Assembly (NCBI GenBank): GCA_965195285.1
Contig: CBDAFS010000042.1
Coordinates: forward strand, 1-42,188
Direction: 5' to 3'
From: an uncultured Aminicenantes bacterium
GTDB lineage: Bacteria > Acidobacteriota > Aminicenantia > UBA2199
DNA: 42,188 nt
A program made the translations under genes and the position numbers. This document shows positions 1 through 12,950 of the stretch, piece after piece. How positions within the stretch are numbered: position 1 is the first letter of the stretch; each line of letters starts with the position of its first letter. The notes beneath the pieces were generated by a model. The model was not told where the DNA came from. It saw nothing but the letters and a program-made list of their open reading frames with translations, and did no database searches.

Positions 1-420
1 GCTCTTGATTAAAATATCCAGGTCACAAAATGCTCTTAACCCGATATCACCGTAGGCCTGGACCGCAATGACCGGTCCTTTAAAGGGAACCGCTTCAAAT
101 CCATTGGTTGATAATATTTTCAGGATATTGAGTAATTTCTGGGTCACCAGGATGTTGCGCCCGACATTATTTAAATAGAGGTTTTTTTGCTTAACCAGCT
201 CTGTTTGAGGTACTACCCCTTCTTGCTGACGCTTAAGATATTTATAAAGCAGAGGCAGCACCCCGTGCTGGATTGCCAGATTGGTTACCAGAGGCCAATT
301 AATTCTCCTTTCAAAGCTTTTCCAATCAACCTTTTGATTATTCTTATCCACATGTATCGCACTCAGAACCAGTTTCATTTCCAGAGTAAAATTTCCCGTC
401 AATTTATTATCCATTATCAT
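1..420 (-). CDS. Nucleotidyltransferase family protein (NTP_transf_5-like), 3' end beyond window edge
   Basis: Not in the ORF track; translated by hand: MIMDNKLTG...INWPLVTNLAIQHGVLPLLYK...AVPFKGPVIAVQAYGDIGLRAFCDLDILIKS. The W..A..H.V.PLLY, FKG and R..D.D motifs are typical of this family. Frame is open to position 1. Confidence 0.85.
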   Translation of the reverse strand, partial: MIMDNKLTGNFTLEMKLVLSAIHVDKNNQKVDWKSFERRINWPLVTNLAIQHGVLPLLYKYLKRQQEGVVPQTELVKQKNLYLNNVGRNILVTQKLLNILKILSTNGFEAVPFKGPVIAVQAYGDIGLRAFCDLDILIKS

Positions 421-445
421 TTAGTGTTGGTCTGGCAAGTCATAT

Positions 446-816
446 TTTTTCGTAAAAAGTAAAGTGTAAAATGTGAAACTTAAAAAGCTTTTTCACTCTT
501 CACGCCTTACGTCTTCACGCCTTACGTCCTCACGCATTACTCTTTACGTCTCACTCTTTTTACTTTACCTTAACCTTAACCTTAACCTGAGGAATCAGAA
601 GACAGAAGACAGAAGTCAGAATAAATAAAATCCGAAATCCGAAATCCGAAACAAAGAAATTCTTAAAAAACATTGAATGATGAATATTGAACAAAGAATA
701 TCGAATGTCGAAGTGAAAGATTCATTTTTTAAATACTTCATCATTCCTTGTTCGTCATTCGTTATTCGATATTCAAAACTAAATACTTTTTTCCTCAACC
801 TTAACCTTTACCTCAG
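446..816. repeat. Mosaic of short-period tandem and inverted repeats
   Basis: (TTCACGC/CTTACGT)n, (AACCTT)n, (CAGAAGA)n, (AAATCCG)3, and a GAATNNN...NNNATTC 7-mer hairpin at ~676-774. Confidence 0.9.
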
Positions 817-831
817 CTCTAGTATCGTTTC

Positions 832-2643
832 TCATCTATTAACTGTCTGCCCTTCTATCATCGACCTGTATAACTCACTGGTCTCCATCAACTCTTCATG
901 ACTGCCCATGGCCACTAATTTTTTATCATTCAATAATAAAATACGCTTAACATTTTTTACTGTGCTCATCCGGTGGGCCACGACAAACTGGGTTTTGTCT
1001 TTGATCAATTTTGGTAATTCTGAAAAAATCAGATTTTCGGTCACACTGTCCAGAGCAGAGGCCGGCTCATCTAAAATCAGGATATCCGGATCTTTGATCA
1101 ATGCCCGGCCAATGGCCAATCGCTGTTTCTGTCCCACAGATAAATTCACACCTCGCTCTCCAACCCTTGACTCATATCCATTCTCCAGGCTCATGATAAA
1201 GTCATGTATCCCCGCTACTCTGGCAATTTCAATCACCTGATCCTTACTTGCTTGCGGATTGCCATAACAGAGATTTTCCATGATGGTGCCGGATAATAAT
1301 TCCGGGTCCTGTGATACATAACCGATTCGCCGTCGTAATGACCTCAGGTCATATTCAGATACCGGAATCCCATCAAAACGGATCTCACCTTTTGATGGTT
1401 TGTAAAAACTGAGAATTAAACTCAAAAGAGTTGTCTTTCCAATGCCACTGGGCCCCACAATGGCAATCTTTTCTCCCGGTTTTACAGCTAAACTTACATC
1501 CTCTAATATCATGTCCTGACCGCTGTAGGCAAATGATACCTTATCAAATTCAATGCTCCCTTTTAATTTTGTTACTTGTTTTCCTTTACCTAAATTTTCT
1601 TCCGGTACAATATCAAACAGGGCCGATACCCGTTCCAGGGCAGCTAAGGCATTTTGAAAACTCAGGTTGGCATTGGCTAAAAACTGGGCCGGACCATACA
1701 CAAACCCCACATAGGACCGGAAAGCCAACAGAGACCCTAAGGTCCATTCCCCCATAATTATCCAGTAGGCTCCGGCTAATAAAACCAGTACCCGGGCTAT
1801 TTCCGGTACTATTCCAATTGACATGCCCGCTGCTGAGCTTACCGTGGACTGTTCAATACCCAGGTTCATGGCTGAACGCAACTCATCGGTTACCTTGTTC
1901 ACGGTTCGGTCCTCGTTGGAGAATGATTTAACCAGAGTGGTAGATGACAGAGATTCCTGCAATGAACGGGAAACCTGAGCCTGCTGCTCCATGCGGTGAT
2001 GGCTGAGAACATGCATTTTGCGGGCAAAAAACCTGACCATAACCATCAAAACCGGCAATCCTACCAACACCACCAGGGCCAGCTGCCATTTCAGATAAAA
2101 TAACAGCACAATACCACCCATCAGTTGAAGGGTTGAGGTAAATATATACACAAGAATATTGGAAAAGAAATAGCGCAATCCACTCACATCGCCCAGTATT
2201 CGGGACATCAAATAACCGGTTTCCTGACGGTCAAAAAATGATTTGGGAAATTTCAGGGTACGGTCCAATACATCATGCTGGATATCCAGCAGAATTTCCT
2301 GTTCAAACCGGGCAAAGTAAAACCGTTGCATAGCATTGGCCAGTATTTCCAGCAACTTAACTACAGCCAGAACCACCACCGTTGTTATCAACAATTCCAA
2401 TTTTTTGGCCAAAATGACATTGTCCACTAAGAAACGAATGATCAGGGGAACCGGAAAGACCAGGGCAGAAGAAAGCAACACCAGTACTGCACCCAGCACC
2501 CCCTTTTTCCAGTGACGGGAGATAAAGGGCTTTAGGTTTCTCAGTCTTTGGCAAAAACCCTCTGTTGGCTTTCCCGTTCTCATCCGGTCTTCCGGAGGCA
2601 AGTGGGATAGGCCCTGTTTAAAAAATTTAAACCATGATTTCAT
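832..2643 (-). CDS. ABC exporter, fused permease + ATPase (MsbA/peptide-exporter type, no C39 peptidase domain)
   Basis: Multi-TM N-half, Walker A GPSGIGKTT, signature LSVGQKQR, Walker B ILILDEP, H-loop VAHR. Confidence 0.95.
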   Translation of the reverse strand: MKSWFKFFKQGLSHLPPEDRMRTGKPTEGFCQRLRNLKPFISRHWKKGVLGAVLVLLSSALVFPVPLIIRFLVDNVILAKKLELLITTVVVLAVVKLLEILANAMQRFYFARFEQEILLDIQHDVLDRTLKFPKSFFDRQETGYLMSRILGDVSGLRYFFSNILVYIFTSTLQLMGGIVLLFYLKWQLALVVLVGLPVLMVMVRFFARKMHVLSHHRMEQQAQVSRSLQESLSSTTLVKSFSNEDRTVNKVTDELRSAMNLGIEQSTVSSAAGMSIGIVPEIARVLVLLAGAYWIIMGEWTLGSLLAFRSYVGFVYGPAQFLANANLSFQNALAALERVSALFDIVPEENLGKGKQVTKLKGSIEFDKVSFAYSGQDMILEDVSLAVKPGEKIAIVGPSGIGKTTLLSLILSFYKPSKGEIRFDGIPVSEYDLRSLRRRIGYVSQDPELLSGTIMENLCYGNPQASKDQVIEIARVAGIHDFIMSLENGYESRVGERGVNLSVGQKQRLAIGRALIKDPDILILDEPASALDSVTENLIFSELPKLIKDKTQFVVAHRMSTVKNVKRILLLNDKKLVAMGSHEELMETSELYRSMIEGQTVNR

Positions 2644-2685
2644 TGTTCAGATCAAATTTTCTTAATTTTGCATCTAAATTATACC

Positions 2686-2905
2686 TTAGGTTAAGGTAAA
2701 GACGTAAAAAGTGAAGCGTAAAAATCTTAAAATCTTTCGTGAAACGTAATACATGAAGAGTGAAAATTAAAGTGGAACTTGTAATTCGATTGCAACTCGT
2801 AAAACATCAAGTGAAACATGAGATTTATTAATGACAAGCTATGTGAGCCCTTAATGACGCAACCTCTGGTTGTAAATGACACGAGTGAAGCAAATAAATG
2901 ACCAG
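2686..2905 (+). repeat. Composite dispersed repeat, copy A
   Basis: 2686-2792 is an inverted repeat of 8005-8111; 2783-2905 is a direct repeat of 10292-10416; AATGAC at 2830, 2853, 2875, 2897. Confidence 0.9.
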
Positions 2906-2917
2906 ATTTTCTCAACT

Positions 2918-3640
2918 TCAGAACTTCCCAACTTCTGACTCCTGACTTCTGTCTCCTATATTTTTAGCTGCATTTTTAATCTTCATAACTTCTTCTCTCT
3001 TTATAATCAAATCAAACGGTTTTTGACAATACATCTCTTTCTTCCCTTTGAACCAACGGGCCACAGTTTTCCCCTTGTAAGTGGTCTTGATGATGGTACC
3101 AGTAGGAGTATTCAGCCGAATGGTAAAAAGGTGTTTGTCCAGGTATTTATTCAAAATCCGGTATACTATTTTTGACTGCCTGATGTTGTGGTAAATTGTT
3201 TTCATAAAACCGGGAATCCATTTTTTTAAAACCCTCAATCCCCATCTCAACCGGACCTTCCAGAGCACCGGGAACCCCGATTTAACCGGCCATATCCGTT
3301 GATTTGATTCCACCATCTCCACCCGTCCGATAATCTGATCCAGGGTTACGGGCAGGACATCCCGACGGGAATTGTTATCCCCCCGGGTTAGCCAACCGGA
3401 ACCCAATTGTTTGACAACCCGGTGAACGGTAAAATCGCTTTCAAGTGATTTTCTGAAGATAATGACATCTCCGGGTTGAATATTTTCAATGGTCTCCTGT
3501 ACATAGAGCAGTTGACCCGGCCGAAAAGTGGGTAACATGCTGTTTCCCCGGTAAATAAAACATTTTTGGAATCCGGTTTTTTTGGCCCATCCGGGGATAA
3601 TAGAGGTTTCAAACGGATTGTGGGTTTCCAAATTCATCAT
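2918..3640 (-). CDS. S24/S26 family (signal peptidase I-like) peptidase, candidate RiPP leader peptidase
   Basis: GNSMLPT (catalytic Ser), GDVIIF, VHRVV (His), TRGDN motifs; C-terminal tail is encoded by a 7-mer repeat. Confidence 0.85.
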   Translation of the reverse strand: MMNLETHNPFETSIIPGWAKKTGFQKCFIYRGNSMLPTFRPGQLLYVQETIENIQPGDVIIFRKSLESDFTVHRVVKQLGSGWLTRGDNNSRRDVLPVTLDQIIGRVEMVESNQRIWPVKSGFPVLWKVRLRWGLRVLKKWIPGFMKTIYHNIRQSKIVYRILNKYLDKHLFTIRLNTPTGTIIKTTYKGKTVARWFKGKKEMYCQKPFDLIIKREEVMKIKNAAKNIGDRSQESEVGKF

Positions 3641-4490
3641 GGATCAAACCCCAGAAATCAGGGGATTTTCTGAAATGAAGCTCATAACCCGGAATTTTCC
3701 TAGCAATATCTGCAGAAATCCGAAATGCATTTTCAATTATATCGCCATGCAAAACCAGACGGGCAACACTATCCAGGCACCCTTCAAACAATCCCCGGGC
3801 AGTTTTCATTGGCGATAATCTATCCAGTTTGTCCGCTGTGTCCTGGTTGAGAAAAAAAACCGCTCTAAGGGGAATACCGTCAAGCGAAAGAGTTCGGTCG
3901 GTTACCCGGTAGTCTCCCTTTTTATTCTGATACACCACCACATGGTCATCATGAATGATCCGGTATCCCTTTTTCTCACTGAAATTGGATGTTGTGGTTT
4001 TTCCGGCTCCGGAAACTCCCACAAATAAATAGGCCGAATCCTGATCGTATACTCCCGATGCATGATAAAAACCCTTTTTTCGTTTTAAATGCTGCCATGC
4101 ACTCAATATACAGAAAAGGTTATTGAGCTTATCCGAAGCCTGGTAAAAATCATCCTCTTCAAGTAGATAAAAATATACCGGCTTTTCACTACTCCGTAGT
4201 CGAAATACCCGGAAACCGGGTACAATTTCCTCGCCGTACTGCCAGATAACCCTCCATCCTTTAATCTCTGAACCTTGATCTGAAGAATTAATAACTTCCC
4301 AGGCTTGATAAATATTTTTCCATAAATCGGGAACAGACTTTTTTTCGTAAAAAACAATATCAGAAGTAACCAAAACCAGTTCATCATCAACACCATTATC
4401 CCGATTATATTCGGGGAAAATCGATGAAGTCATGGAAGATAATGATGAAAGTAACTTCTCACCGGCTCGAGTATAGGAATTTAATATCAT
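3609..4490 (-). CDS. scmC: HprK-related P-loop kinase-like protein (ScmC-like)
   Basis: HASGV, GVSGAGKTT, IHDD motifs and C-terminal YELHFRKSPDFW; position within an Scm-like cassette. Confidence 0.7.
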   Translation of the reverse strand: MILNSYTRAGEKLLSSLSSMTSSIFPEYNRDNGVDDELVLVTSDIVFYEKKSVPDLWKNIYQAWEVINSSDQGSEIKGWRVIWQYGEEIVPGFRVFRLRSSEKPVYFYLLEEDDFYQASDKLNNLFCILSAWQHLKRKKGFYHASGVYDQDSAYLFVGVSGAGKTTTSNFSEKKGYRIIHDDHVVVYQNKKGDYRVTDRTLSLDGIPLRAVFFLNQDTADKLDRLSPMKTARGLFEGCLDSVARLVLHGDIIENAFRISADIARKIPGYELHFRKSPDFWGLIHDEFGNPQSV

Positions 4491-4551
4491 AAATTATAAA
4501 GAATAAATAATTGAATTAAAATTTCCAGAAAATTAAATTTTTAAAATATTT

Positions 4552-4785
4552 TTATCCAGCTTCGTAACCACTAATACAACTGTAACCTGCTGAATTACCG
4601 GTTGGCAGACACATTTGAGCTGGAAATACAACACCACCTGGCACACAGGTACTAAGAGCGATATCTCCGGTAACCGAACAGTCTACCATGGTATATTCAG
4701 GCTTACCGGTCACACAGGAACCCTGGGCAATTTGCAGAGAACTCAAATCTTTAGCAATTGGTTTTTCGTATTTTGGTTTATCCAT
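4552..4785 (-). CDS. RiPP precursor peptide, 77 aa, YxxP leader and 5 periodic Cys
   Basis: AAGGAG RBS; YEKP-x4-L leader motif; CxxG/CxxTG repeats; directly downstream of two rSAM/SPASM genes. Confidence 0.85.
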   Translation of the reverse strand: MDKPKYEKPIAKDLSSLQIAQGSCVTGKPEYTMVDCSVTGDIALSTCVPGGVVFPAQMCLPTGNSAGYSCISGYEAG

Positions 4786-4848
4786 TTACATCTCCTTTTG
4801 GATTATAGAAAATAAAAGATTAAAATGCAAGCCTTAAATTTATTTAAT

Positions 4849-5949
4849 CTATTTTTTTCTTGACGCAGGAAAAAGTCCGATCTCATCTGCCTGCTGGCAG
4901 AACCAGAAGGGAGCTGTCAGCCTTCCGGTGGCATGATAATTCTGAGCCACACAGGTGCCAAGACATCGGCTCTTGAAAATACACTTACTGCAGATTCCTT
5001 CCAATTGAGAAGGAATGACTTTACGAAGTTTTTTTAGACCTGCTGCACTACTCCATACATCAATTACCTTGTCTTTCTCAAGGAAACCATAAACTAAGTC
5101 TTTTTCCTGAGTGCCAATCCCACACATAGCCAATTCTCCTGAGGATAGGATTCCCAGAATATAGTATAAGTTACAATTTCCACCCAGGTCATTATTAAGA
5201 CGCCTGATCCCGTGAAAGACCATGGGCCAGCTATAAAACAGCGGAATGGAATAACGGGACCGCAATTCTTTTTCCACCCAGTTACCCAGTTCAAGCAGTT
5301 CCTCAATGGAAAGCAGGCTATTGTTTTTTTTCATCTGTTCTCCCCGTCCAGATGGCTGGATAATATTAAATTTAACCGAACCACATCCAGTTTCTACTGC
5401 CCAATTAATCATAGGCTCGATCTCCTCTACATTATCAGGATAGAGGCTCATAATTACTTGCGGTTTATAGCCTGATTCCACAAGGTAATGGACACCCTTT
5501 CTTGCCTTTTCGAAACTGCCTGTAACATTACGCATATAATCGTGTGTTTCTGCTGTGACTCCATCAATACTCACTGCGACACTATACATAGACGTTTTTT
5601 CTTTCAAGTAACGGGATAATTCTCGGGATAACAGTGTTCCGTTGGTTTCCAGATTTGTCTTGAGTTCCTTTTCAGTGGCATAATCCACCATTCGCCTAAA
5701 ATCGGGGTGCAACAGAGGTTCTCCACCGGTAAATTTGATGCGATTTAAACCGAGGGGAATAGCTTCATTAACAGCTGTTTTAAAAAATTCAAAATCCAAA
5801 CATTCCCCACATCCTCCGTCTGGTTCAAAACTGGGTGCAATCCAGCAGTGACGGCAAGCCAGGTTACATCCACTGGTGATATACATATAATAAGTGGTGA
5901 GCGGCGGAACACCTTCTGGAAGATCCAATTTTCTTTTTTCTTTTAACAT
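4849..5949 (-). CDS. scmF: Radical SAM/SPASM maturase (ScmF-like)
   Basis: CNLACRHC, FTGGEP, ETNG; SPASM Cys set (NC...AMC...CSKCIFKSRCLGTC...FC); YMYITSGCNL..RHCWI.P resembles the ScmF N-terminus as recalled. Confidence 0.85.
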   Translation of the reverse strand: MLKEKRKLDLPEGVPPLTTYYMYITSGCNLACRHCWIAPSFEPDGGCGECLDFEFFKTAVNEAIPLGLNRIKFTGGEPLLHPDFRRMVDYATEKELKTNLETNGTLLSRELSRYLKEKTSMYSVAVSIDGVTAETHDYMRNVTGSFEKARKGVHYLVESGYKPQVIMSLYPDNVEEIEPMINWAVETGCGSVKFNIIQPSGRGEQMKKNNSLLSIEELLELGNWVEKELRSRYSIPLFYSWPMVFHGIRRLNNDLGGNCNLYYILGILSSGELAMCGIGTQEKDLVYGFLEKDKVIDVWSSAAGLKKLRKVIPSQLEGICSKCIFKSRCLGTCVAQNYHATGRLTAPFWFCQQADEIGLFPASRKK

Positions 5950-5974
5950 CTATCCTTTTAATTTATTTTAAATT

Positions 5975-6066
5975 CGAAAAGTGTAAAAGGTGATTTAGTA
6001 TCTTCACTTTTTACTCTTTACGCCTCACGTTTTTCATCTTTGCCTTTACCTCAACCTTAACCTAAG
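5975..6066. repeat. 7-mer periodic hairpin followed by an (AACCTT)-type run between the rSAM genes
   Basis: CGAAAAGTGTAAAAGGTGA followed by TTCACTTTTTACTCTTTACGCCTCACG, then CTTTACCTCAACCTTAACCT. Confidence 0.7.
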
Positions 6067-6092
6067 TTTTAGAAGCTTCGTTATTTCGAGTT

Positions 6093-7199
6093 TCAATAAC
6101 TGTATTCCGGATCTTCTCCGATATAAGCCCGGTAACAATCGCTGGGGTTGATGGTATTGACCTCCCCGGTGATGGCATAGGCCACCCCCGGACATCCCCC
6201 TGTGCAATATTTTTGGTATTCACAACCCTTACAATGGGGGATAGATTCCAGAGAAATATTTTCCCGCTCCCTGAGCTCATTCAGTTCGGAATTGTGTAAC
6301 CAAATATCCTTGAGCGAGTCTTTACCAATTTTTCCGAGAGAGATGTGGGGCAATTGATGACAGGGAACATAGGTACCATCATGGAGAACCGAAAGCTTTT
6401 GCCACATGATATTACAGCCGGTTAGGTGTCCGGTTTTATAGGGAAAATCAAATTTACCGGTTTTGCGAGCCTTATTGACCTTATCAATATAATTGGAAAT
6501 GATTAAAGGGCCGGCCTGGCCTCCGCTGGCTACCCCCGGATGCGTTCGGTCAAATTCCTGCATAACTCTGAATGACAACCTCCGTTCCTCCGGAGTCATT
6601 TCCAGGATGGAATGGTTGCAGTGGCCTGCTCCTCTCGGAAAAGCCTCACTCACATCAAACCGTTTCAGGCCCAGATCTTTATATAGCATTTTCAGTGTAT
6701 TTTCCAAATCATAGACATTGAGTTTGTTCACTGTAACCCGGACCACCCAGGGAAATTTGTATTCTTTGAGGATATTGACACCTTGCAACATGTTTTCTAA
6801 TGATCCCTTTCCCCGTATTTGATCATGGGTCTCTGCACAGGAACCATCCACCGACACTTGGATGTAATCCAGACGGCGGCTGTACTTTTTCAGTTTTTTA
6901 CCCACTTTGTCAGTAATTAAAGTCCCATTGGTTAAAATACCGAATCTCATTTTATTTTCAACAATACCATCAATTAACTCCCATAAATCTTTTCGGGTAA
7001 ATATTTCGCCTCCACTCAAAGTCATCCTCATGATCCCGGCATCCCGGCACTCTTCAAAAAATTTCAACCAGGTTTCGGTGGGTAAATCCTTTAGAGCTAC
7101 CATCTCGTCCGCATAAAAGCAATATTTACATGCCAGGTTACATCGTCCGGTTAGAGCCACTACAACGGATTCCGGAGACTTAAATAATTTTCTATGCAT
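6093..7199 (-). CDS. scmE: Radical SAM/SPASM maturase (ScmE-like)
   Basis: SPESVVVALTGRCNLACKYC, SGGE, QVSVDGS; SPASM GC...DGTYVPC...CKGCEYQKYCTGGC...DC. Confidence 0.85.
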   Translation of the reverse strand: MHRKLFKSPESVVVALTGRCNLACKYCFYADEMVALKDLPTETWLKFFEECRDAGIMRMTLSGGEIFTRKDLWELIDGIVENKMRFGILTNGTLITDKVGKKLKKYSRRLDYIQVSVDGSCAETHDQIRGKGSLENMLQGVNILKEYKFPWVVRVTVNKLNVYDLENTLKMLYKDLGLKRFDVSEAFPRGAGHCNHSILEMTPEERRLSFRVMQEFDRTHPGVASGGQAGPLIISNYIDKVNKARKTGKFDFPYKTGHLTGCNIMWQKLSVLHDGTYVPCHQLPHISLGKIGKDSLKDIWLHNSELNELRERENISLESIPHCKGCEYQKYCTGGCPGVAYAITGEVNTINPSDCYRAYIGEDPEYSY

Positions 7200-7210
7200 C
7201 TGAAAAATCC

Positions 7211-7849
7211 TTATTTTTTTGACTCGTCCATAACTCCAATAAAACCGCTATCTACCATTTGTTTTAAAAATTCTTCCACATCCGTTTTAACCTGAGCTTC
7301 GGGCACATCATCAAAATCTTTATTAAAAGCATTGATGATCTCTTCCACACTACGCTCCCGTTCACAGAGTTTCCAGATATAATGACCGGTCTGGCTCAAC
7401 AACTTAACCTGGTCGGTATCGGGATTAAAGAGAAGAGCTCCATCTTCATCTTCTTCCCGTAGATTCACATCAGGATTTTGTATATGTTTTGTTTGACTCA
7501 TGATGTCTCCTTTCTTATTTTTTTTTAAATCCAGTAAAGAATGATTCTTCCATAATTGCTGACACATATTCCACAACTTTGAGAGTGCCTCTATCCGGGA
7601 TATCCCAAATTTTTTCGAATATGAATCCGCAATCTCTTCAAGATTTTTTTCTCCATCCAGCTGATCCCAGAACCAGTATTCAATTGGATTGAGCTCTGTA
7701 AGTTCTTTATTATGTAAATTAAGCACTAAAGCTCCCTCATCAAACACTTCAACACAAATCTCTTTTTTGGGAACAAAAACCATTTCTTTATCAATTTCCT
7801 TCTCAGTCTGTGAATTTTTCCCCTTTGATAAATAAGAATGGTTCTTCAT
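7211..7849 (-). CDS. scmD: Tandem PqqD/RRE-domain protein (C-terminal domain ScmD-like)
   Basis: Two PqqD-like units (EVFDEGALVLN...LNPIEYWFWDQLDG; LREEDEDGALLFNPDT...TGHYIWKLC...DVEEFLKQM); internal AAGGAG + ATG at 7501. Confidence 0.85.
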   Translation of the reverse strand: MKNHSYLSKGKNSQTEKEIDKEMVFVPKKEICVEVFDEGALVLNLHNKELTELNPIEYWFWDQLDGEKNLEEIADSYSKKFGISRIEALSKLWNMCQQLWKNHSLLDLKKNKKGDIMSQTKHIQNPDVNLREEDEDGALLFNPDTDQVKLLSQTGHYIWKLCERERSVEEIINAFNKDFDDVPEAQVKTDVEEFLKQMVDSGFIGVMDESKK

Positions 7850-7854
7850 TTTTT

Positions 7855-7883
7855 ATTTTATAGCTTCTCTACACACTAGTCAA
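7855..7883 (-). promoter_or_regulatory. Sigma70-like promoter for the RiPP cluster (probably leaderless)
   Basis: TTGACT-17 nt-TAAAAT ending 5 nt before the ATG at 7849. Confidence 0.6.
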
Positions 7884-7971
7884 CCATCTTTTTTATTTTT
7901 CCAATTTTCTTAACTTCTTATCTTTAATTTTTTTATTACTAATTACATTTTACTATTTACGAATTACGGTT

Positions 7972-8111
7972 TTTCACCCTTCACGTATTACGCATTACGT
8001 TCAACAACCGAATTACAAGTTTCACTTCAATTTTCACTCTTCATGTATTACGCTTCACGAAATATTTTATGATTTTCACCCTTCACGCCTTACATCTTTA
8101 CCTTTACCTAA
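7972..8111 (-). repeat. Composite dispersed repeat, copy B (inverted relative to A)
   Basis: 8005-8111 matches the reverse complement of 2686-2792 at 94/107 positions by manual alignment. Confidence 0.9.
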
Positions 8112-8116: not shown

Positions 8117-8980
8117 TTAAAGAACACTCTCCTTCACATACACCACATCATTGGGTTTGAGATTAAAATCCGGTTGTTTGCCACTGAGTATTTTTTTTAC
8201 ATTCACCTTGATTTTAATTTCCTTACCGCTTTCCCGCCGGGTAATCAACACCGATGATTTCCTGGCCCGATCGCCAAACCCACCGGCCTGGGCAATGGCC
8301 CGGAGCAGCGTGAGTTGATCACTCTTTTTCATCTGAATCTGTCCCGGATTTTTAACCTGGCCAAACACAAAGATATCAACTAACATGTCCATGGCCACAT
8401 TAACAATGTCATTGGACTGAAGGGGGATATTCAAGCTGGCATTACCTTTTAGCATGAGCTCTTCGATATCGATGGCTAACGAGGCACTTTTTCCATCCGG
8501 GTACTGGCGGATGATAATAATTTTACTACCGGCCTTTTCGGTCAGGCCTCCGGCCCGGGAAAGCAATTGCAAGAGGGTTTGTTTACCGATCAATTCATAA
8601 TCACCGGTTTTTTGAACCGCGCCGATGATGGAGACTTTTTGACTCTGATATTCCTTGATAAATACCGTAACCTGGGCATTTTTCAAATAACTTTTTTCTA
8701 AAAGCGTGGCCAGCCTGGCCTCTAACTGTAATGGATTGAGTCCCTGCACCCGAACAACACCCAATAATGGCAGGGCAATGGTGCCGTCCTCAGCCACCCT
8801 CACCGTTATGTTGAGTTCCGGCACCTCAAACACACTGATAGTCAACAAATCCTTGGGTCCTATGGTATAGGCATAATCTTTGGTTCTATTTTCAGGAATA
8901 TTTGATTTTTCCTGCTGGCCCAAGAGACTTAATACCAGACATACCATAAAAAAAATCAGACAAATTTTTTTAAAAATCAT
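8117..8980 (-). CDS. wza: Polysaccharide export protein (Wza/Poly_export + SLBB domains)
   Basis: YTIGPKDLLTISVF, DGTIALPLLG, two SLBB repeats (GAVQKTG...LSRAGG; GQVKNPG...AQAGG). Confidence 0.9.
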   Translation of the reverse strand: MIFKKICLIFFMVCLVLSLLGQQEKSNIPENRTKDYAYTIGPKDLLTISVFEVPELNITVRVAEDGTIALPLLGVVRVQGLNPLQLEARLATLLEKSYLKNAQVTVFIKEYQSQKVSIIGAVQKTGDYELIGKQTLLQLLSRAGGLTEKAGSKIIIIRQYPDGKSASLAIDIEELMLKGNASLNIPLQSNDIVNVAMDMLVDIFVFGQVKNPGQIQMKKSDQLTLLRAIAQAGGFGDRARKSSVLITRRESGKEIKIKVNVKKILSGKQPDFNLKPNDVVYVKESVL

Positions 8981-10184
8981 AGGTAATATAACCTCCTAAA
9001 AAGTCATAACCACGGGAATAATTCTGAACATCTGACTCTACCCGGTAGGTTGAATATTCCAGTCCGATTCCCATTTTTTTAAATATCTTGATACCCACAA
9101 AAAAACGGGATTGTTGAATCCGGTCTTTTCTCATTATTTCGCTGTATTCCAGGTCCTTATAAGACATCAGGCCGGATCGAAATCTATACCCCAATTTTAA
9201 TTGACGGCTCAGGTAAAATTCAATGCCTCCGGTAACAGACTGTTGATTGTAATAAGAATCCGGTTGATAAAAGGAAAAGTAATTACCCATCAGGTATTCA
9301 ATACTAATTCTAAATCGCTTAAATACTATCGTTTTAACTTCACCTGACCCGTAGAAAGAGGAATAATCGCCATACAATGGGTTTTCAGGGTGATTCCATT
9401 GATACCCCAGTTCAAAAACTCCGGTAATATTTCCAATGATTGGAAATCTTAATCCCATAGACACTGACTCACCATCTCCGTCTCTATCCGGATAGTGTTG
9501 AAATCGATAGTTAAAATATCCCACATTTAAGAATAAAACAGTCCGGGAAAAGATGATTTTATTAAGATTCAGTCCCAGCCGGTACTGGGTCTGGTCCATG
9601 AGCTGAGAGAGATCATGATCACCTAAATAACTGTCATCCTCATATTGCATCCGATTCTGTTCTGCATACACAGTGATATAAAAACTCTGATGATTACCAT
9701 AATCTAAAGAAATCCTCTCATTGTCCATCAGATACCGTACGCGTACACCAAATTCAGCAGAGGGCCGGCGGCGAAGATTATTCCGATCCAGGGTGAATTT
9801 AAAGTTAAAGGGTCCCAAAAATGAATAAACGGAAAATCGAAATTCATTATTCCAGGCCTGTTCCTGTTTGTTATAGGCATAATAAGAATAATAGGGATGA
9901 TCGGTTACAACGAAAATGAAGCGTTTTCCCAACAGGGTTGACAGCCGGATGTTTACACCGAGATCAGCGGTCCAATCCGGCTCCGGATCACCATCATATT
10001 GATAAATATTGGTGTTATAACCCAGGTTTTCCAGGGTGAGCTGAGGCATGACATAAAAAAATCCGAGCCTGAATAGTGATTCCTTTAGAATTCGCTCTTT
10101 GACTCTGAAAAAATCATCCGCCAGATTATTCTGGAAAAAAAACAATACAGAAATAATAAATACGATTATTCGACAAAATAACAT
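8970..10184 (-). CDS. Outer-membrane beta-barrel protein, EPS-export associated
   Basis: Signal peptide, aromatic-rich alternating strands, C-terminal YDF, overlaps wza start. Confidence 0.75.
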   Translation of the reverse strand: MLFCRIIVFIISVLFFFQNNLADDFFRVKERILKESLFRLGFFYVMPQLTLENLGYNTNIYQYDGDPEPDWTADLGVNIRLSTLLGKRFIFVVTDHPYYSYYAYNKQEQAWNNEFRFSVYSFLGPFNFKFTLDRNNLRRRPSAEFGVRVRYLMDNERISLDYGNHQSFYITVYAEQNRMQYEDDSYLGDHDLSQLMDQTQYRLGLNLNKIIFSRTVLFLNVGYFNYRFQHYPDRDGDGESVSMGLRFPIIGNITGVFELGYQWNHPENPLYGDYSSFYGSGEVKTIVFKRFRISIEYLMGNYFSFYQPDSYYNQQSVTGGIEFYLSRQLKLGYRFRSGLMSYKDLEYSEIMRKDRIQQSRFFVGIKIFKKMGIGLEYSTYRVESDVQNYSRGYDFLGGYITYDF

Positions 10185-10189
10185 GGTGT

Positions 10190-10218
10190 ATTATACAGGA
10201 AAAGTTAAGATTTATGAA
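10190..10218 (-). promoter_or_regulatory. Sigma70-like promoter (probably leaderless) for barrel-wza
   Basis: TTCATA-17 nt-TATAAT ending 5 nt before the ATG at 10184. Confidence 0.5.
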
Positions 10219-10291
10219 TTTACTAAATAATTATTTGACTATAACTGGTTATTCGTAGTAATTCACTCACTTTGTTCGTGTAATTCATGGA

Positions 10292-10437
10292 AATTCGATT
10301 GTAACTCGTAAAACGTAAAGAGTGAAATATGAGATTTATTAATGACAAACTCTTTGAGTTCTTAATGACGCATGCTCTGCATGCAAATGACGCGAGCGAA
10401 GCGAGTAAATGACCAGTATATTTTGTTCTTAACTTCT
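10292..10437 (+). repeat. Composite dispersed repeat, copy C
   Basis: Direct repeat of 2783-2905; AATGAC at 10341, 10364, 10386, 10408; 10361-10437 is inverted relative to 12704-12788. Confidence 0.9.
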
Positions 10438-10438
10438 C

Positions 10439-10927
10439 TCACAACTCAGTCGGGCTCTGCTCGTCTTCGATGATCTTAATGATCAGGGCCGTACCGGCAA
10501 TGGTCATGGCAATACCGCAGGGCTCGATGAAAAACAGAAAGAAGGGCCGCTTTGGGGCCAGGTGAAAACTTCTGATCACGGTTTTGCCGCCGATGACATT
10601 GACCACCGATAGGGTTTGATACATCTTGCCGTTTTTGACCTCAATGGCTGCCTTGTACTTGCCTCCGGGAATCTCACCCATCTTATAATCACCGGTTTCA
10701 CCGGTGGGTTCGGATTTATAGGTCTTATCACCTTTTTTGGCCTTCACTTTTTTCAATATCACCCGGGCCTCCTCCAGCGGGGTTTTGCCATCCTTGTCAT
10801 AAACAAATCCCATCAGGTTGCCGTTCTGGCTCTGGCCGAAAACCGAGACCGGAAATACGAATCCGATCACAGCTATCATAAAAATAAAAAACATGTATTT
10901 TCTCAACATCCCAATTTTATGCATCAT
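10439..10927 (-). CDS. Exported carboxypeptidase-regulatory-like domain protein with C-terminal hydrophobic anchor
   Basis: Signal peptide, GNLMGFVYDKDGKTPLEEARV...G.Y...G.Y pattern, hydrophobic tail followed by EDEQSPTEL. Confidence 0.7.
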   Translation of the reverse strand: MMHKIGMLRKYMFFIFMIAVIGFVFPVSVFGQSQNGNLMGFVYDKDGKTPLEEARVILKKVKAKKGDKTYKSEPTGETGDYKMGEIPGGKYKAAIEVKNGKMYQTLSVVNVIGGKTVIRSFHLAPKRPFFLFFIEPCGIAMTIAGTALIIKIIEDEQSPTEL

Positions 10928-10956
10928 ACCCTCCTGTATTTCTCAATCAACATCCA

Positions 10957-11406
10957 TTAAATAATGATTAAAATCCCGAAAAATATCACCGCTAACACAC
11001 AATTGATATACCCTAACAGGGGCTTGCGGGGTTTGTAAAAAAATGACCGTTCTAAAACTTTTCCCTTGACAATCTTCACAATGGTCAGGGTCTTGGTAGG
11101 CTTCTTGCCGGATTTGGTGATCAGGCCGGCCTTATAAATCCCCTCGGGAACATTCTTGATTTCATAGTTGCCATTATCATCGGCGGGTTCGGACTTGTAC
11201 TGCTTTTCCTTTTTTTTATCCTTCTCAAGGGTGGTTAAAACAACCTGACACTTTTGGAACGGGGTCTTGACATCCTTTTTGTAAACCACCCCCATCATAC
11301 TACCAGTCTCTTCCTGAGCCAGCGTATTCAAGGGAAGAATTAATATTGAGAACACTAATACGGTCAGCCAGGTACCTGCTTTTCTGAAAAATGCTTTTTG
11401 ATTCAA
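10957..11406 (-). CDS. Paralogous carboxypeptidase-regulatory-like domain protein
   Basis: GSMMGVVYKKDVKTP...YKSEP...GNY...GIYKA shared with 10439-10927; C-terminal TM segment. Confidence 0.7.
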   Translation of the reverse strand: MNQKAFFRKAGTWLTVLVFSILILPLNTLAQEETGSMMGVVYKKDVKTPFQKCQVVLTTLEKDKKKEKQYKSEPADDNGNYEIKNVPEGIYKAGLITKSGKKPTKTLTIVKIVKGKVLERSFFYKPRKPLLGYINCVLAVIFFGILIII

Positions 11407-11407
11407 A

Positions 11408-12643
11408 TCACCCTCCTTGAGTTAACTTTTTTGTGGTTTCAATATAATAATCACAGTCTTTGTACCCCTGCCGGATACGGTTGACCTTTACCATCTCAAC
11501 CAAAGACTTCTGCCAGTTTTTCATCTTGAAATAAAGCACTCCCAAATTGTAAAAAACATCAATATGTTCCTGTTTTCTGCTGCTATAATAACGGGATTTC
11601 TTTAAAATTGCAATAGCCAAGTTGATTTTTTTTATTTTTTCATAATAACCGGCAGCCTGGAGATAAAAGTTAATCTCACAGGTTTGCGGATTTTTATGAC
11701 AACCCTTTATGATTTCACCAATTACTGGATTCTTGAGCTGATACCGGTTCCGGGCTTCCCCTAACAGATCCCGGCCGATAAAGGAATCGCCTTCAAATTG
11801 TTTAACCAGCTCGCTGAATCCTTTTTTACCGAATCTGGAGGCCAGCTCACCGATCAATCGCTGGCGTTCCGAGCGAACTTTTCGGATAATGGTTTCCAAC
11901 TTTTTTTTATCGGAAGGGTTTTCAATTTTTTGATAAAAGGCCATGGTTTGACCGTAGTTTTTGACAAAATAATAGGAAATAACCAGATAATACAAAACCT
12001 CATCCTGAAGCTCCGGGGATTTGGCCCTATACACCTTTCTCAGTTTTTCAATGCAATGCGTGTATTTCTTTTGTTCGAAACAGAGCCGGGCCTTAAGATA
12101 GTCAATCCGGATATCCTTTTTGTTCATTCGCTTGAGTTTTTTAATCTCGATTTCAGCTTTGGCATACTGATTGGCCTCAATATAATCCCGGACATTTTGA
12201 AAGATGGCTTCAAAACCCCTCATCAGGCTGATATTCTTTTTGACTGCGGGTATCCGGCCATCTGATTGGATTTTGGTAGCCGGTTTAAATACCGACAATA
12301 ACCGTTCCATATCCGATCGAAGCTGTTCCTGAACTTCCAGTTCCGAAAGCGCCGTTGACCCGAATTCAGTCCTGATTTCATTCAGTACCTGCTGAACCTC
12401 TTTGGCCTGATTCAGTTTAAAATGGGAAAGCGCTTCAAAAATATAAATCTCTTTCAATAACTCTCTGTCAGGCAATAAACCAAATTTGGCGATACGGAAA
12501 TTTTCCAGCGCCTGTTCAAATTGATTCTGAAAATACAGAGCCTTGCCTTTTTCCATCATCTGAACATAAAAAGGATCCGCCTCAGCTATTAAAAATAGTG
12601 CCATTAACAAACCGAGGAGCAATATTCCAAGCTTCATCTTCAT
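11408..12643 (-). CDS. Exported TPR-like protein
   Basis: Signal peptide from MKMKLG (ATG at 12643; the track's 12673 start overlaps the -10 box); helical TPR-like repeats such as FYNLGVLYFKMKNWQKS. Confidence 0.7.
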   Translation of the reverse strand: MKMKLGILLLGLLMALFLIAEADPFYVQMMEKGKALYFQNQFEQALENFRIAKFGLLPDRELLKEIYIFEALSHFKLNQAKEVQQVLNEIRTEFGSTALSELEVQEQLRSDMERLLSVFKPATKIQSDGRIPAVKKNISLMRGFEAIFQNVRDYIEANQYAKAEIEIKKLKRMNKKDIRIDYLKARLCFEQKKYTHCIEKLRKVYRAKSPELQDEVLYYLVISYYFVKNYGQTMAFYQKIENPSDKKKLETIIRKVRSERQRLIGELASRFGKKGFSELVKQFEGDSFIGRDLLGEARNRYQLKNPVIGEIIKGCHKNPQTCEINFYLQAAGYYEKIKKINLAIAILKKSRYYSSRKQEHIDVFYNLGVLYFKMKNWQKSLVEMVKVNRIRQGYKDCDYYIETTKKLTQGG

Positions 12644-12664
12644 ATTAGATTCTCTTTGATCCCC

Positions 12665-12692
12665 ATTATACAATGAATTGAAATTTTTTCAA
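12665..12692 (-). promoter_or_regulatory. Sigma70-like promoter
   Basis: TTGAAA-16 nt-TATAAT upstream of the ATG at 12643. Confidence 0.55.
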
Positions 12693-12703
12693 GAACAGAA
12701 GCC

Positions 12704-12950
12704 AGAAGTTAAGAATAATACAACTGGTTATTCATGGTCATTTGTGACCATTGGTCACGTCATTTGCATACAGAGCATGCGTCATAAGTTCACTACGTTC
12801 ACGTCATTAAGAGCTTCAGAGAACTGTAATGACAAGTTATGATAGTTCTTAATGACCAGAATCATAGGGTTTCAATGACAAGAATTTGATAGATATAATG
12901 ACAAGCTCTTTAGAGTTTAAATGACAAGCTCCAGAGAGTTCTAATGACCA
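12704..12950. repeat. Composite repeat copy D with head-to-head 22/23-nt periodic arrays
   Basis: GTCAT at 12737/12759/12781/12803 (period 22); AATGAC at 12828/12851/12874/12897/12920/12943 (period 23). Confidence 0.9.

What the first reader, a model, noticed from the sequence alone, without database searches (positions are those of the whole stretch)
1..7883. Complete dual radical-SAM (SynChlorMet-like) RiPP system with a visible precursor
Seen: promoter, tandem RRE, two SPASM rSAMs, 77-aa precursor, HprK-like kinase, S24/S26 peptidase, ABC exporter and nucleotidyltransferase, all co-oriented. Known: the ScmC/D/E/F cassette is defined bioinformatically (TIGRFAMs), and I am not aware of a characterised product. 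Inference: an exported, multiply cross-linked peptide of undescribed chemistry, with the substrate identifiable here.
Basis: partly seen in the sequence, partly recalled or inferred. Interest (0 to 1): 0.85.

Follow-up and report, generated by a model that had tools for sequence, protein, structure and literature searches.

The report
Divergent two-radical-SAM peptide gene cluster
This is a real gene cluster for a small, exported, cysteine-rich modified peptide: a divergent relative of the computer-defined "SynChlorMet" cassette, whose substrate peptide can be read but whose chemistry no paper found here has described.

Summary
Window 1-7883 carries eight co-oriented minus-strand genes:
- a tandem PqqD/RRE protein
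- two radical SAM/SPASM enzymes
- a 77-aa precursor with five Cys spaced 12/11/12/11
- an HprK/PEPCK-fold P-loop protein
- a soluble Sec11/SipW-type S26 peptidase
- an ABC exporter
- a PF14907 nucleotidyltransferase, cut off by the contig end

Each enzyme's best NCBIfam match is the matching Scm model, but all fall below the curated cut-offs, and the precursor misses the ScmA model (TIGR04252). It is therefore a divergent sister clade, not a canonical member. A canonical cassette lies elsewhere in the same genome.

A precursor-like ORF occurs in 52 of 80 homologous loci from many phyla and in 8 of 9 metagenome loci. These ORFs share a K-Y-E-K-P leader and Cys every 10-12 residues, with Gly at Cys+3 in 85% of cases. 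Synonymous sites are saturated while protein sequence is conserved.

The most likely mechanism is inferred, not shown: RRE-guided Cys thioether cross-linking by two non-redundant maturases, possible phosphorylation and decoration, leader removal, and export.

"Complete" and "promoter" are not established. The literature searches found no characterisation of this cassette.

The parts
7855..7883 (-). Sigma-70-like -35/-10 pair (TTGACT, 17 nt, TAAAAT) just upstream of the RRE gene
   Evidence: 10 of 12 matches, the best minus-strand site. The number of such sites in the region is not above shuffles (23 against 20.7), so this is a candidate only.
7211..7849 (-). Tandem PqqD-type RRE protein, ScmD-like, 212 aa. 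The real start may be Met23 at 7783.
   Evidence: PF05402 at 81.7 bits, two stretches. TIGR04248 at 79 bits, below the cut-off of 100; the halves are 27% identical, E 3e-6; two beta3-alpha3 domains; fold matches to the lasso B1 proteins TbiB1 and 6jx3, to PqqD, and to the double RRE of ThcOx.
6093..7199 (-). Radical SAM/SPASM enzyme, ScmE-like, 368 aa
   Evidence: TIGR04250 at 347.9 bits (cut-off 400). Radical_SAM plus SPASM. CX3CX2C at residue 20; SPASM Cys at 262, 280, 323, 326, 332, 336 and 355; nearest solved relatives are PqqE (E 3.6e-20) and SkfB.
4849..5949 (-). Radical SAM/SPASM enzyme, ScmF-like, 366 aa
   Evidence: TIGR04251 at 398.5 bits (cut-off 400). CX3CX2C at residue 28; SPASM Cys at 259, 276, 320, 323, 329, 333 and 351; only 24% identical to the ScmE-like enzyme; sits in an 11-row clade that is sister to the canonical ScmF clade.
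4552..4785 (-). Precursor peptide, 77 aa: leader with K-Y-E-K-P and D-L-S-S, Gly22, then a core with Cys at 24, 36, 47, 59 and 70
   Evidence: AGGAG ribosome-binding site; seven homologues at 66-74% identity, all five Cys invariant; pS 0.74-0.82 against pN 0.17-0.38; the same position between ScmF and ScmC in metagenome loci; no hit to ScmA TIGR04252.
3609..4490 (-). HprK/PEPCK-fold P-loop protein, ScmC-like, 293 aa; putative peptide kinase
   Evidence: TIGR04249 at 37.2 bits (cut-off 125). H143, G161, G163, K164, T166 and D182 invariant in 12 sequences. HprK 1jb1 at E 4.3e-5; model pLDDT 88.2; Foldseek gives PEPCK at 1.7e-7 and HprK/P 1ko7 at 3.4e-4.
2918..3640 (-). Soluble Sec11/SipW-type (S26B) Ser-His peptidase, 240 aa; putative leader peptidase. 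Overlaps the ScmC-like gene by 32 nt.
   Evidence: TIGR02228 at 59.5 bits, above 51.85. SEC11A 7p2p at E 6.6e-4, aligned across the SM-P, HR and GDN motifs. Ser34, His73 and the GD/Asp positions are at least 90% conserved in 54 homologues; no hydrophobic segment (maximum KD19 0.62).
832..2643 (-). ABC half-transporter (TMD-NBD), 603 aa, without a C39 peptidase domain; putative exporter
   Evidence: ABC_membrane plus ABC_tran. MsbA/HlyB-type and bacteriocin ABC models, all below cut-offs; an ABC homologue is present in 43 of 80 related loci.
1..420 (-). N-terminal 140 aa of a PF14907 nucleotidyltransferase, cut by the contig end just after a D-x-D motif (D133, D135)
   Evidence: PF14907 at 85.3 bits (cut-off 31.2); the window is the whole contig; both Asp residues are at least 90% conserved in 25 homologues; present in 24 of 80 related loci.

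Best explanation
This is a RiPP biosynthetic cluster of the SynChlorMet type, in a divergent form. The steps below are marked as shown or inferred.

1. The 77-aa peptide is the substrate (supported). Its leader, residues 1-22 with K-Y-E-K-P and D-L, is bound by the discrete tandem RRE (inferred).
2. The RRE presents the core, about residues 23-77, to two non-redundant radical SAM/SPASM maturases (inferred).
3. These maturases most likely join each of the five periodic Cys sulfurs to a carbon of a nearby residue. That would give a chain of small thioether rings of sactionine or ranthionine type. The acceptor is probably C-terminal to each Cys, within the conserved C-x-x-G-x-x-A segment (inferred).
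4. The HprK-like P-loop protein may phosphorylate a hydroxyl of the peptide. The PF14907 enzyme may then decorate it, by analogy with PsmK and PsmN of the lasso peptide pseudomycoidin (inferred).
5. The soluble Sec11-type Ser-His peptidase removes the leader, probably after Gly22, where Ala20 at -3 and Gly22 at -1 fit the small-residue rule. The ABC half-transporter then exports the product (inferred).

Confidence differs by layer. That this is a RiPP cluster with this ORF as substrate is about 0.9. Thioether chemistry is about 0.55. A kinase/decoration step is about 0.35. The overall figure given is for the statement as a whole.
For: FAMILY ASSIGNMENT
- The best NCBIfam hit of each enzyme is the matching Scm model.
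- The gene order RRE-ScmE-ScmF-precursor-ScmC-S26-ABC-NTP recurs across phyla.
- Components found in the 80 related loci: ScmE 71, RRE 68, ScmC 63, precursor 52, S26 51, ABC 43, NTP 24.

THE PRECURSOR IS A REAL, SELECTED GENE
- It has a ribosome-binding site.
- Seven homologues at 66-74% identity keep all five Cys.
- pS is 0.74-0.82 against pN 0.17-0.38 in the four window comparisons.
- It occupies the same slot in 8 of 9 metagenome loci.

FAMILY-WIDE PATTERN (67 distinct precursors, 343 Cys)
- Gly at Cys+3 in 85%; Ala at Cys-4 and at Cys+6 in 40% each; spacings of 10, 11 or 12 residues in 230 of 276 intervals.
- Leader consensus K-Y-E-K-P...D-L...G-x-C, with the first Cys 18 or 19 residues after the Tyr in 44 of 67.
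- 6-8 residues follow the last Cys in 53 of 67.

ENZYMES
- Both rSAMs have CX3CX2C plus a seven-Cys SPASM and no fused RRE. They are only 24% identical to each other.
- The RRE fold matches leader-bound lasso B1 proteins.
- The RRE-precursor co-fold scored ipSAE 0.55 (three runs: 0.54, 0.71, 0.55) against a best control of 0.00. The tool's verdict was weak support. That mark was reached by 58 of 80 solved complexes and 2 of 110 mismatched pairs, but a score of 0.60 or under by only 7 of those 80 and by both mismatches. Contact agreement was at least 92% and partner pLDDT at least 42. Similar RRE-leader complexes are solved, so the pass may come from memory.
- The ScmC-like protein has the HprK/PEPCK fold and an invariant Walker A.
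- PsmK/PsmN precedent: passages of PMC6993621 and PMC9266682.
- The S26 catalytic Ser, His and Asp are conserved in 54 homologues, and the protein has no membrane anchor.
Against: - No chemistry is shown.
- The nearest solved relatives of the two rSAMs are distant and functionally mixed: PqqE (C-C bond), SkfB and CteB (thioether), BlsE (decarboxylase). Homology therefore does not fix the reaction.
- All Scm scores are below the curated cut-offs.
- 28 of the 80 related loci showed no precursor. Many of those loci are truncated, and the precursor profile was seeded from a regex that required periodic Cys.
- Only 6 of 67 precursors end in Ser, so the lasso-type C-terminal Ser phosphorylation does not transfer directly.
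- In the window peptide, Gly sits at +3 for only 3 of the 5 Cys and at +4 for the other two.
- The nucleotidyltransferase gene is truncated by the contig end.
- Expression could not be examined: the sequencing-run tool did not complete.
Confidence: 0.6

Rival explanations
1. Same cluster and substrate, but the two radical SAM enzymes do something other than form Cys thioethers. Possibilities are C-C or C-O cross-links, epimerisation, or oxidation of Cys. The periodic Cys would then stay free for metal binding, or form disulfides after export.
For: The nearest solved relative of the ScmE-like enzyme is PqqE, a C-C bond former, with a full-length match at E 3.6e-20. The best solved hit of the ScmF-like enzyme is the decarboxylase BlsE. 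The most conserved core residue after Cys is Gly, which has no side chain.
Against: Cys is the only invariant core residue across the family, and its period is the repeat unit. Characterised sactipeptide and ranthipeptide maturase models (StsB, PapB, AlbA, SkfB) are among the NCBIfam hits of one or both enzymes. A Cys-rich substrate next to a SPASM enzyme gave ranthionine links in CrpC/CrpA (abstract of PMC13692751).
Confidence: 0.2
2. It is simply a canonical SynChlorMet cassette scoring slightly low, so nothing distinguishes it from what TIGRFAMs already defines.
For: ScmF scores 398.5 against a cut-off of 400. All best hits are Scm models, and the core gene order is the same.
Against: ScmC scores 37.2 of 125 and ScmD 79 of 100, and ScmA gives no hit. 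The same genome holds a true canonical cassette scoring 132.8, 618.9, 589 and 270.3. On the ScmF tree the window copy sits in a separate 11-row clade (support 96) outside the 54-row canonical clade. The RRE is duplicated here, whereas the ScmD profile is 84 positions long and the genome's own canonical ScmD is 96 aa.
Confidence: 0.1
3. The product is not an exported bioactive peptide. It would instead be an intracellular or periplasmic cofactor-like or redox or metal-handling peptide, like PQQ or mycofactocin, and the ABC transporter would be unrelated or a housekeeping gene.
For: The canonical cassette in the same genome has no peptidase or exporter beside it and is followed by EtfB/EtfA genes. 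A 274-nt gap with repeats separates the ABC gene from the peptidase gene.
Against: ABC and S26 homologues recur next to the cassette in 43 and 51 of 80 loci across many phyla. The core is 55 residues long and varies in sequence between relatives, unlike cofactor precursors, whose reactive residues are fixed.
Confidence: 0.1

Closest known systems
SynChlorMet (SCM) cassette of TIGRFAMs/NCBIfam: ScmA TIGR04252, ScmC TIGR04249, ScmD TIGR04248, ScmE TIGR04250, ScmF TIGR04251
   Same: Each enzyme's best family hit is its Scm counterpart. The core order is D-E-F-A-C. The precursor has the same leader type and periodic Cys.
   Different: All five models score below their cut-offs or give no hit. The RRE is tandem. 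The precursor subfamily is more hydrophobic, with 11-12-residue units. It forms a separate ScmF clade. The searches found no published chemistry for either form.
Sactipeptide and ranthipeptide systems (AlbA, SkfB, CteB, PapB; also CrpC/CrpA)
   Same: Radical SAM/SPASM maturases with a seven-Cys auxiliary domain, a Cys-rich precursor and RRE-mediated leader recognition (abstract of PMC13692751).
   Different: Here the RRE is a separate tandem protein and two maturases only 24% identical to each other are always paired. The Cys sit in a regular 10-12-residue C-x-x-G repeat. That known sactipeptides have nested hairpin bridges, and that PapB works on C-x3-D motifs, is recalled and comes from no call.
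Lasso-peptide tailoring pair PsmK (HprK family) and PsmN (uncharacterised nucleotidyltransferase), with a PqqD-like B1 protein
   Same: An HprK-fold P-loop protein, an 'uncharacterised nucleotidyltransferase' with a D-x-D motif near residue 134, a PqqD-type RRE and an ABC exporter lie together. The Y-x-x-P leader motif resembles the one bound by lasso B1 proteins; that motif is recalled and comes from no call.
   Different: There is no lasso cyclase and no B2 protease. Only 6 of 67 precursors end in Ser, the residue PsmK phosphorylates. Homology of the window's PF14907 fragment to PsmN itself was not tested.
Sec11/SipW-type (S26B) signal peptidases
   Same: The catalytic Ser (SM-P), His (HR) and GDN motifs align with human SEC11A. 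TIGR02228 scores above its cut-off.
   Different: There is no membrane anchor, there is a C-terminal extension of about 130 aa, and the gene is embedded in a RiPP cluster. The likely substrate is a leader peptide, not a Sec signal peptide.

Membership tests
SynChlorMet cassette (NCBIfam equivalogs) | ScmF TIGR04251 at or above 400 bits | tested here: not met
   398.5 bits and 398.2 bits. The genome's other copy scores 589.
SynChlorMet cassette (NCBIfam equivalogs) | ScmE TIGR04250 at or above 400 bits | tested here: not met
   347.9 bits. The canonical copy in the same genome scores 618.9.
SynChlorMet cassette (NCBIfam equivalogs) | ScmD TIGR04248 at or above 100 bits | tested here: not met
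   79 bits, with the best stretch in the C-terminal RRE domain, residues 123-205. The canonical copy scores 132.8.
SynChlorMet cassette (NCBIfam equivalogs) | ScmC TIGR04249 at or above 125 bits | tested here: not met
   37.2 bits. The canonical copy scores 270.3.
SynChlorMet cassette (NCBIfam equivalogs) | ScmA TIGR04252 at or above 35 bits | tested here: not met
   No hit at E up to 10. The model is narrow: the precursor beside the genome's canonical cassette scores only 15.2, and L065 scores 20.8.
SynChlorMet cassette (architecture) | A PqqD-like protein, two PqqE-like rSAM/SPASM enzymes, a small precursor and ScmC, adjacent and co-oriented | tested here: met
   The same architecture appears in related loci.
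Radical SAM/SPASM peptide maturases | CX3CX2C SAM-cluster motif and a seven-Cys SPASM motif, including CX2CX5CX3C | tested here: met
   Both enzymes. Pfam SPASM scores above its cut-off only for the ScmE-like enzyme. The ScmF Cys positions are invariant in 13 homologues.
RiPP recognition element (PqqD fold) | Winged-helix beta3-alpha3 domain similar to leader-binding RREs | tested here: met
   PF05402 at 81.7 against 23.4. Two such domains in the model. TM-scores of 0.85 to TbiB1 and 0.87 to 6jx3, normalised to the target.
RiPP recognition element (PqqD fold) | Binds the leader of the cognate precursor | tested here: inconclusive
   Co-fold ipSAE 0.55 against a best control of 0.00. The tool's verdict was weak support, and the pass could come from memory of solved RRE-leader complexes.
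Sactipeptides / ranthipeptides | Cys sulfur linked to an alpha carbon (sacti) or a beta/gamma carbon (ranthi) of an acceptor residue | not testable with these tools
   This needs mass spectrometry or NMR of the modified peptide.
HprK/P-type P-loop kinases | HprK/PEPCK fold with Walker A G-x-S-G-x-G-K-[ST] and a following acidic motif | tested here: met
   Invariant H143, G161, G163, K164, T166 and D182. HprK 1jb1 at E 4.3e-5. Foldseek gives PEPCK and HprK/P. Kinase activity and its target were not tested.
S26B (Sec11/SipW) signal peptidases | Ser-His(-Asp) catalytic residues in the SM-P, HR and GDN boxes | tested here: met
   TIGR02228 at 59.5, above 51.85. Alignment to SEC11A. Residues conserved in 54 homologues.
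S26B (Sec11/SipW) signal peptidases | N-terminal membrane anchor placing the active site outside the cytoplasm | tested here: not met
   The maximum 19-residue Kyte-Doolittle mean is 0.62, and there is no hydrophobic segment.
PF14907 nucleotidyltransferases | Pfam score above the gathering cut-off, and the D-x-D metal site | tested here: met
   85.3 against 31.2. D133 and D135 are conserved. Only 140 aa of the gene lie on the contig.

The most novel reading that the evidence does not exclude
The cluster could make an undescribed RiPP class. A string of small rings would be closed on a regular A-x3-C-x-x-G repeat by two obligately paired, non-redundant radical SAM/SPASM enzymes that share a duplicated RRE. 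The peptide would then be phosphorylated and decorated by a PsmK/PsmN-like pair. Its leader would be removed by a soluble Sec11-type Ser-His peptidase, an enzyme type not known to me as a cytoplasmic RiPP leader peptidase. Judging from 2,740 profile hits and more than 570 related maturase loci, this would be a large, chemically unexplored family across anaerobic bacteria and methanogens.
Probability: 0.3. Interest if true: 0.8.

Novelty: new variant of a known kind. Interest (0 to 1): 0.55.

Why it matters
The SynChlorMet cassette has existed only as a set of database models, and the paper searches run here found no publication on it. This analysis adds three things.

1. It gives the family a usable definition. 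That definition covers a leader motif, a repeat unit with the most conserved non-Cys positions, a likely cleavage site, and a conserved accessory set of peptidase, exporter, kinase-like protein and nucleotidyltransferase.

2. It shows the family is large and spread over many phyla: more than 570 maturase loci in one genome per species, and 2,740 profile hits.

3. It shows that a single Acidobacteriota genome carries two diverged versions side by side. This makes a natural experiment on enzyme-substrate specificity.

A short co-expression experiment could therefore reveal new radical SAM cross-linking chemistry and the roles of two paired maturases.

Tried and rejected
LITERATURE
- Five looked for a characterised product and found nothing on Scm: "SynChlorMet" gave 0 papers; the four TIGR accessions gave 0; the species names plus radical SAM terms gave 0; "YEKP" plus radical SAM gave 1 unrelated paper; and the Scm names as whole words gave 8 unrelated papers.
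- One search was a badly chosen query that returned single-cell software papers.
- The broader RiPP searches also turned up nothing on Scm. One search was the lasso-tailing search that supplied the PsmK/PsmN papers.
- PMC4289311 and PMC10288494 were searched for passages and do not mention this system.
- PMC7533575 does not give the Pfam accession of the lasso nucleotidyltransferase.
- Supplementary files were not consulted. They may list this family in radical SAM networks.

TOOLS THAT GAVE NO RESULT
- The look-up of sequencing runs was unreachable four times. No expression evidence was obtained and read laying was not used.

OTHER CHECKS
- The promoter and terminator scan gave counts no higher than in shuffles, and no terminator after the precursor gene.
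- The 62-aa ORF at 2727-2915 and other small ORFs in the cluster did not match the precursor profile.
- P0009, the top hit of the precursor profile, is a repeat-driven false positive. The figure of 2,740 is therefore an upper bound.
- I checked whether a conserved gene follows the nucleotidyltransferase gene in eight related loci. None was apparent. This was judged by eye from the ORF lists, with no family search.

Full report
WHAT IS THERE

Window 1-7883 holds eight genes, all on the minus strand. In transcription order they are as follows.

1. A 212-aa protein with two PqqD domains (7211-7849). Pfam PF05402 scores 81.7 bits against a cut-off of 23.4, in two stretches.
2. A 368-aa radical SAM/SPASM enzyme (6093-7199).
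3. A 366-aa radical SAM/SPASM enzyme (4849-5949).
4. A 77-aa ORF (4552-4785) with an AGGAG 7 nt before its ATG. It has Cys at positions 24, 36, 47, 59 and 70.
5. A 293-aa P-loop protein (3609-4490).
6. A 240-aa S24/S26 peptidase (2918-3640). It overlaps the previous gene by 32 nt.
7. A 603-aa ABC half-transporter (832-2643).
8. The first 140 aa of a PF14907 nucleotidyltransferase (1-420).

The window is an entire contig of a 3.28-Mb, 62-contig assembly. The last gene, and with it the cluster, therefore runs off the assembly, and "complete" cannot be claimed.

Such matches are no more frequent in this region than in shuffles: 23 against 20.7 +/- 4.2. Its -10 element ends 5 nt before the first ATG. 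Homologues begin near residue 23, and residues 1-16 model as disordered. Met23 at 7783 may therefore be the real start.

The gaps before the ABC gene (274 nt) and before the nucleotidyltransferase gene (411 nt) carry repeats. A single operon is therefore not established.

FAMILY ASSIGNMENT

Against NCBIfam, each enzyme's best hit is the corresponding SynChlorMet model, but every score is below the curated cut-off:
- ScmD: 79 of 100
- ScmE: 347.9 of 400
- ScmF: 398.5 of 400
- ScmC: 37.2 of 125

The window peptide does not hit it even at E up to 10.

The same genome carries a second, canonical cassette on contig 39. It scores ScmD 132.8, ScmE 618.9, ScmF 589 and ScmC 270.3. Between its ScmF and ScmC lies a 78-aa ORF with Cys every 10 residues and a K-Y-E-K-P leader. 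EtfB and EtfA genes follow, and no peptidase, exporter or nucleotidyltransferase lies beside it.

On a FastTree of 104 ScmF-like rows, rooted on the window's ScmE-like protein, the window copy sits in a 5-row clade with four metagenome contigs (support 99). That clade lies inside an 11-row clade (support 96) with Chloroflexota MAGs. The 11-row clade is sister, with weak support (81), to the 54-row canonical clade that holds the contig-39 copy, Chlorobium, Syntrophaceae and methanogens. Two long branches, L015 and the outgroup, were flagged by the tool.

The phylum is Acidobacteriota, because two same-phylum handles are identical to named Acidobacteriota records. Family-level kin group with Aminicenantes MAGs.

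IS THE 77-AA ORF A GENE AND THE SUBSTRATE?

A search of 5.8 billion clustered proteins found eight proteins at E up to 0.1. One is the window's own. The other seven are 76-77 aa long and 66-74% identical, and all five Cys are invariant among 32 invariant columns.

Nine metagenome loci were fetched with this alignment. Eight carry the ORF whole; in L107 the contig ends inside it. Where neighbouring genes lie on the contig, the ORF sits directly after ScmF and before ScmC.

In the four comparisons of the window gene with same-length homologues, the proportion of synonymous differences is 0.74-0.82, which is saturated. The non-synonymous proportion is 0.17-0.38. The frame is therefore under purifying selection.

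An ScmF alignment was scanned against one genome per species. The best 80 loci come from Chloroflexota, Thermodesulfobacteriota, Aminicenantes, Verrucomicrobiota, Lentisphaerota, Nitrospirota, Planctomycetota, Chlorobiota, Bacillota and two methanogen families.

- A regex found a small Cys-periodic ORF downstream of ScmF in 40 of the 80 loci. A few of these are GC-rich junk frames.
- A profile built from 67 distinct curated sequences hit 52 of the 80 loci. It also found forms the regex had missed, including five tandem short precursors in L067.
- The 28 loci with no hit include many that are cut by contig ends.
- The profile seeds were chosen by a rule that required periodic Cys, so the spacing statistics are partly circular. 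The Gly and Ala positions and the leader positions other than Y and P were not imposed.

THE FAMILY PATTERN

Over 67 precursors and 343 core Cys:
- Gly occupies Cys+3 in 85%.
- Ala occupies Cys-4 in 40% and Cys+6 in 40%. With a 10-residue period these are the same position.
- The spacings are 10 (115 intervals), 11 (71) and 12 (44), out of 276 intervals.

The leader consensus is K-K-x-K-Y-E-K-P-x-[LA]-x-D-L:
- Glu follows the Tyr in 70%.
- Lys is at +2 in 68%.
- Leu is at +8 in 67%.
- Gly is at +16 in 62%.
- The first core Cys lies 18 or 19 residues after the Tyr in 44 of 67.
- Gly or Ala sits two residues before the first Cys in 70%. Ala, Val or Leu sits four before it in 49%.
- 6-8 residues follow the last Cys in 53 of 67.
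- Only 6 of 67 precursors end in Ser.

The window peptide fits this pattern with a more hydrophobic core and 11-12-residue units. Gly is at +3 for Cys24, Cys47 and Cys70, and at +4 for Cys36 and Cys59. Ala43, Pro55 and Ala66 are invariant at Cys-4.

The 65-sequence profile was searched against 1.84 billion cluster representatives. It gave 2,740 hits at E up to 1e-3 and 48 at 1e-10. Most of the top 150 are 68-140 aa long and are matched from the leader onward. The top hit is a repeat artefact. Three hits are multi-repeat forms of 214-265 aa; P0012 and P0041 begin with a leader-like N-terminus and P0014 does not.

THE ENZYMES

Radical SAM enzymes. Both have CX3CX2C near the N-terminus, at residues 20 and 28, so neither has a fused RRE. 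Both have a full seven-Cys SPASM pattern that includes CX2CX5CX3C. They are only 24% identical to each other. They co-occur in 71 of 80 loci, which argues for distinct roles. Their nearest solved relatives are distant and functionally mixed: PqqE and SkfB for the ScmE-like enzyme, and BlsE, SkfB and CteB for the ScmF-like enzyme. Homology does not fix the reaction.

RRE. Its two halves align to each other at 27% identity over 44 residues, E 3e-6. The AF2 model has mean pLDDT 83.5 and shows two beta3-alpha3 domains. Foldseek matches the double RRE of ThcOx over about 210 columns. It also matches single RREs bound to leaders: TbiB1 at TM 0.85 and lasso B1 6jx3 at TM 0.87, both normalised to the target, as well as PqqD.

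A co-fold of the RRE with the precursor scored ipSAE 0.55 against 0.00 for the best of three controls. The tool called this weak support. That mark was reached by 58 of 80 solved complexes and 2 of 110 mismatched pairs, but a score of 0.60 or under by only 7 of those 80 and by both mismatches. Contact agreement was at least 92%, and partner pLDDT was at least 42. My own alignments were used, and RRE-leader complexes are solved, so the pass may reflect memory.

ScmC-like protein. It keeps H143, G161, G163, K164, T166 and D182 in 12 aligned sequences. A profile of those 12 hits HprK (1jb1, E 4.3e-5; 1ko7, E 3.8e-4) and PEPCK. Its model has pLDDT 88.2 and matches PEPCK at 1.7e-7 and HprK/P at 3.4e-4.

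Peptidase. It aligns with human SEC11A across the SM-P, HR and GDN boxes (E 6.6e-4). It exceeds the archaeal-type signal peptidase cut-off. Its Ser34, His73 and Asp positions are conserved in 54 homologues. It has no hydrophobic anchor.

ABC protein. It has no peptidase domain.

PF14907 fragment. It ends just after a conserved D-x-D at D133 and D135. [quoted passage not shown] PsmN was needed to add hexoses to the peptide phosphorylated by the HprK-family kinase PsmK. I read passages of PMC6993621 and PMC9266682. I did not test whether PsmN belongs to PF14907.

MECHANISM

Shown:
- the parts are present
- they are conserved and co-occur
- the precursor gene is under selection
- the catalytic motifs are intact

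Inferred:
- The leader's Y-x-x-P...D-L segment docks on the tandem RRE.
- The two maturases cross-link the periodic Cys.
- Because every precursor keeps 6-8 residues after its last Cys but only about 2 before its first, the acceptor for each Cys probably lies on its C-terminal side, within C-x-x-G-x-x-A.
- The Sec11-type enzyme cuts after the conserved Gly (Gly22 here). Small residues at -1 and -3 fit the signal-peptidase rule, which is established knowledge of S26 enzymes.
- The ABC protein exports the product.
- The kinase-like protein and the nucleotidyltransferase may add a phosphate-linked decoration. Their target is unknown, and the lasso-type C-terminal Ser is mostly absent.

WHAT REMAINS OPEN

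- Expression could not be examined: the sequencing-run tool was unreachable.
- Supplementary files of papers were not seen.

VERDICT

The cluster is a divergent variant of a kind that has been defined only bioinformatically and that already includes a precursor model. Nothing about its chemistry is known from the literature searched here. It is a good, well-delimited experimental target rather than a surprise.

Noticed in passing
window 497-541, 2703-2757, 7940-8101, 10307-10326, 17452-17479: A short motif, TTCACGYNTTACG, often in tandem copies, occurs 11 times with up to one mismatch, against 0.16 expected. All copies lie in intergenic gaps, including both flanks and one internal gap of the RiPP cluster. 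It may be a genome-wide intergenic repeat or a regulator site.
   Followed up: partly
L109 (own genome, contig 39) 5879-11553: A second, canonical SynChlorMet cassette, ScmD-ScmE-ScmF-(78-aa precursor with Cys every 10 residues)-ScmC. All four enzyme scores are above their cut-offs. EtfB/EtfA genes follow directly, and no peptidase, exporter or nucleotidyltransferase lies beside it. The window's accessory genes might serve both systems.
   Followed up: partly
window 8117-26316: Directly upstream on the same strand lies an exopolysaccharide locus: a Wza-like Poly_export/SLBB protein, two Wzy_C proteins, CpsB/CapC, a Wzc-like AAA_31 protein and a Bac_transf sugar transferase. ORFs from 26316 to 42188 were not annotated.
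   Followed up: partly
L067 6305-7505: A Bacteroidetes MAG locus carries five tandem short precursor-like ORFs with two Cys each, lying between the ScmE-like and ScmF-like genes.
   Followed up: no
P0012, P0014, P0041: Multi-repeat proteins of 214-265 aa with about 20 C-x-x-G units. Two of them, P0012 and P0041, start with a leader-like N-terminus. They may be giant precursors of the same family.
   Followed up: no
P0009: A 1062-aa protein whose C-terminal half consists of dozens of copies of a 10-residue Cys-containing unit. It was the top hit of the precursor profile but has no leader. It is probably a repeat or assembly artefact, or an unrelated repeat protein.
   Followed up: no
L007/L017 and L008/L018 (family-level kin G333, G058); L044 11210-16416: Some Aminicenantes-type loci hold extra ScmF-like genes. 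In the kin genomes a convergent pair, ScmF-like plus an S26 peptidase, faces the E-D-F-C-precursor unit. In L044 the script labelled three further ORFs ScmF-like downstream.
   Followed up: no
L034, L055, L066: Several related loci encode two or three different precursors near one enzyme set.
   Followed up: no
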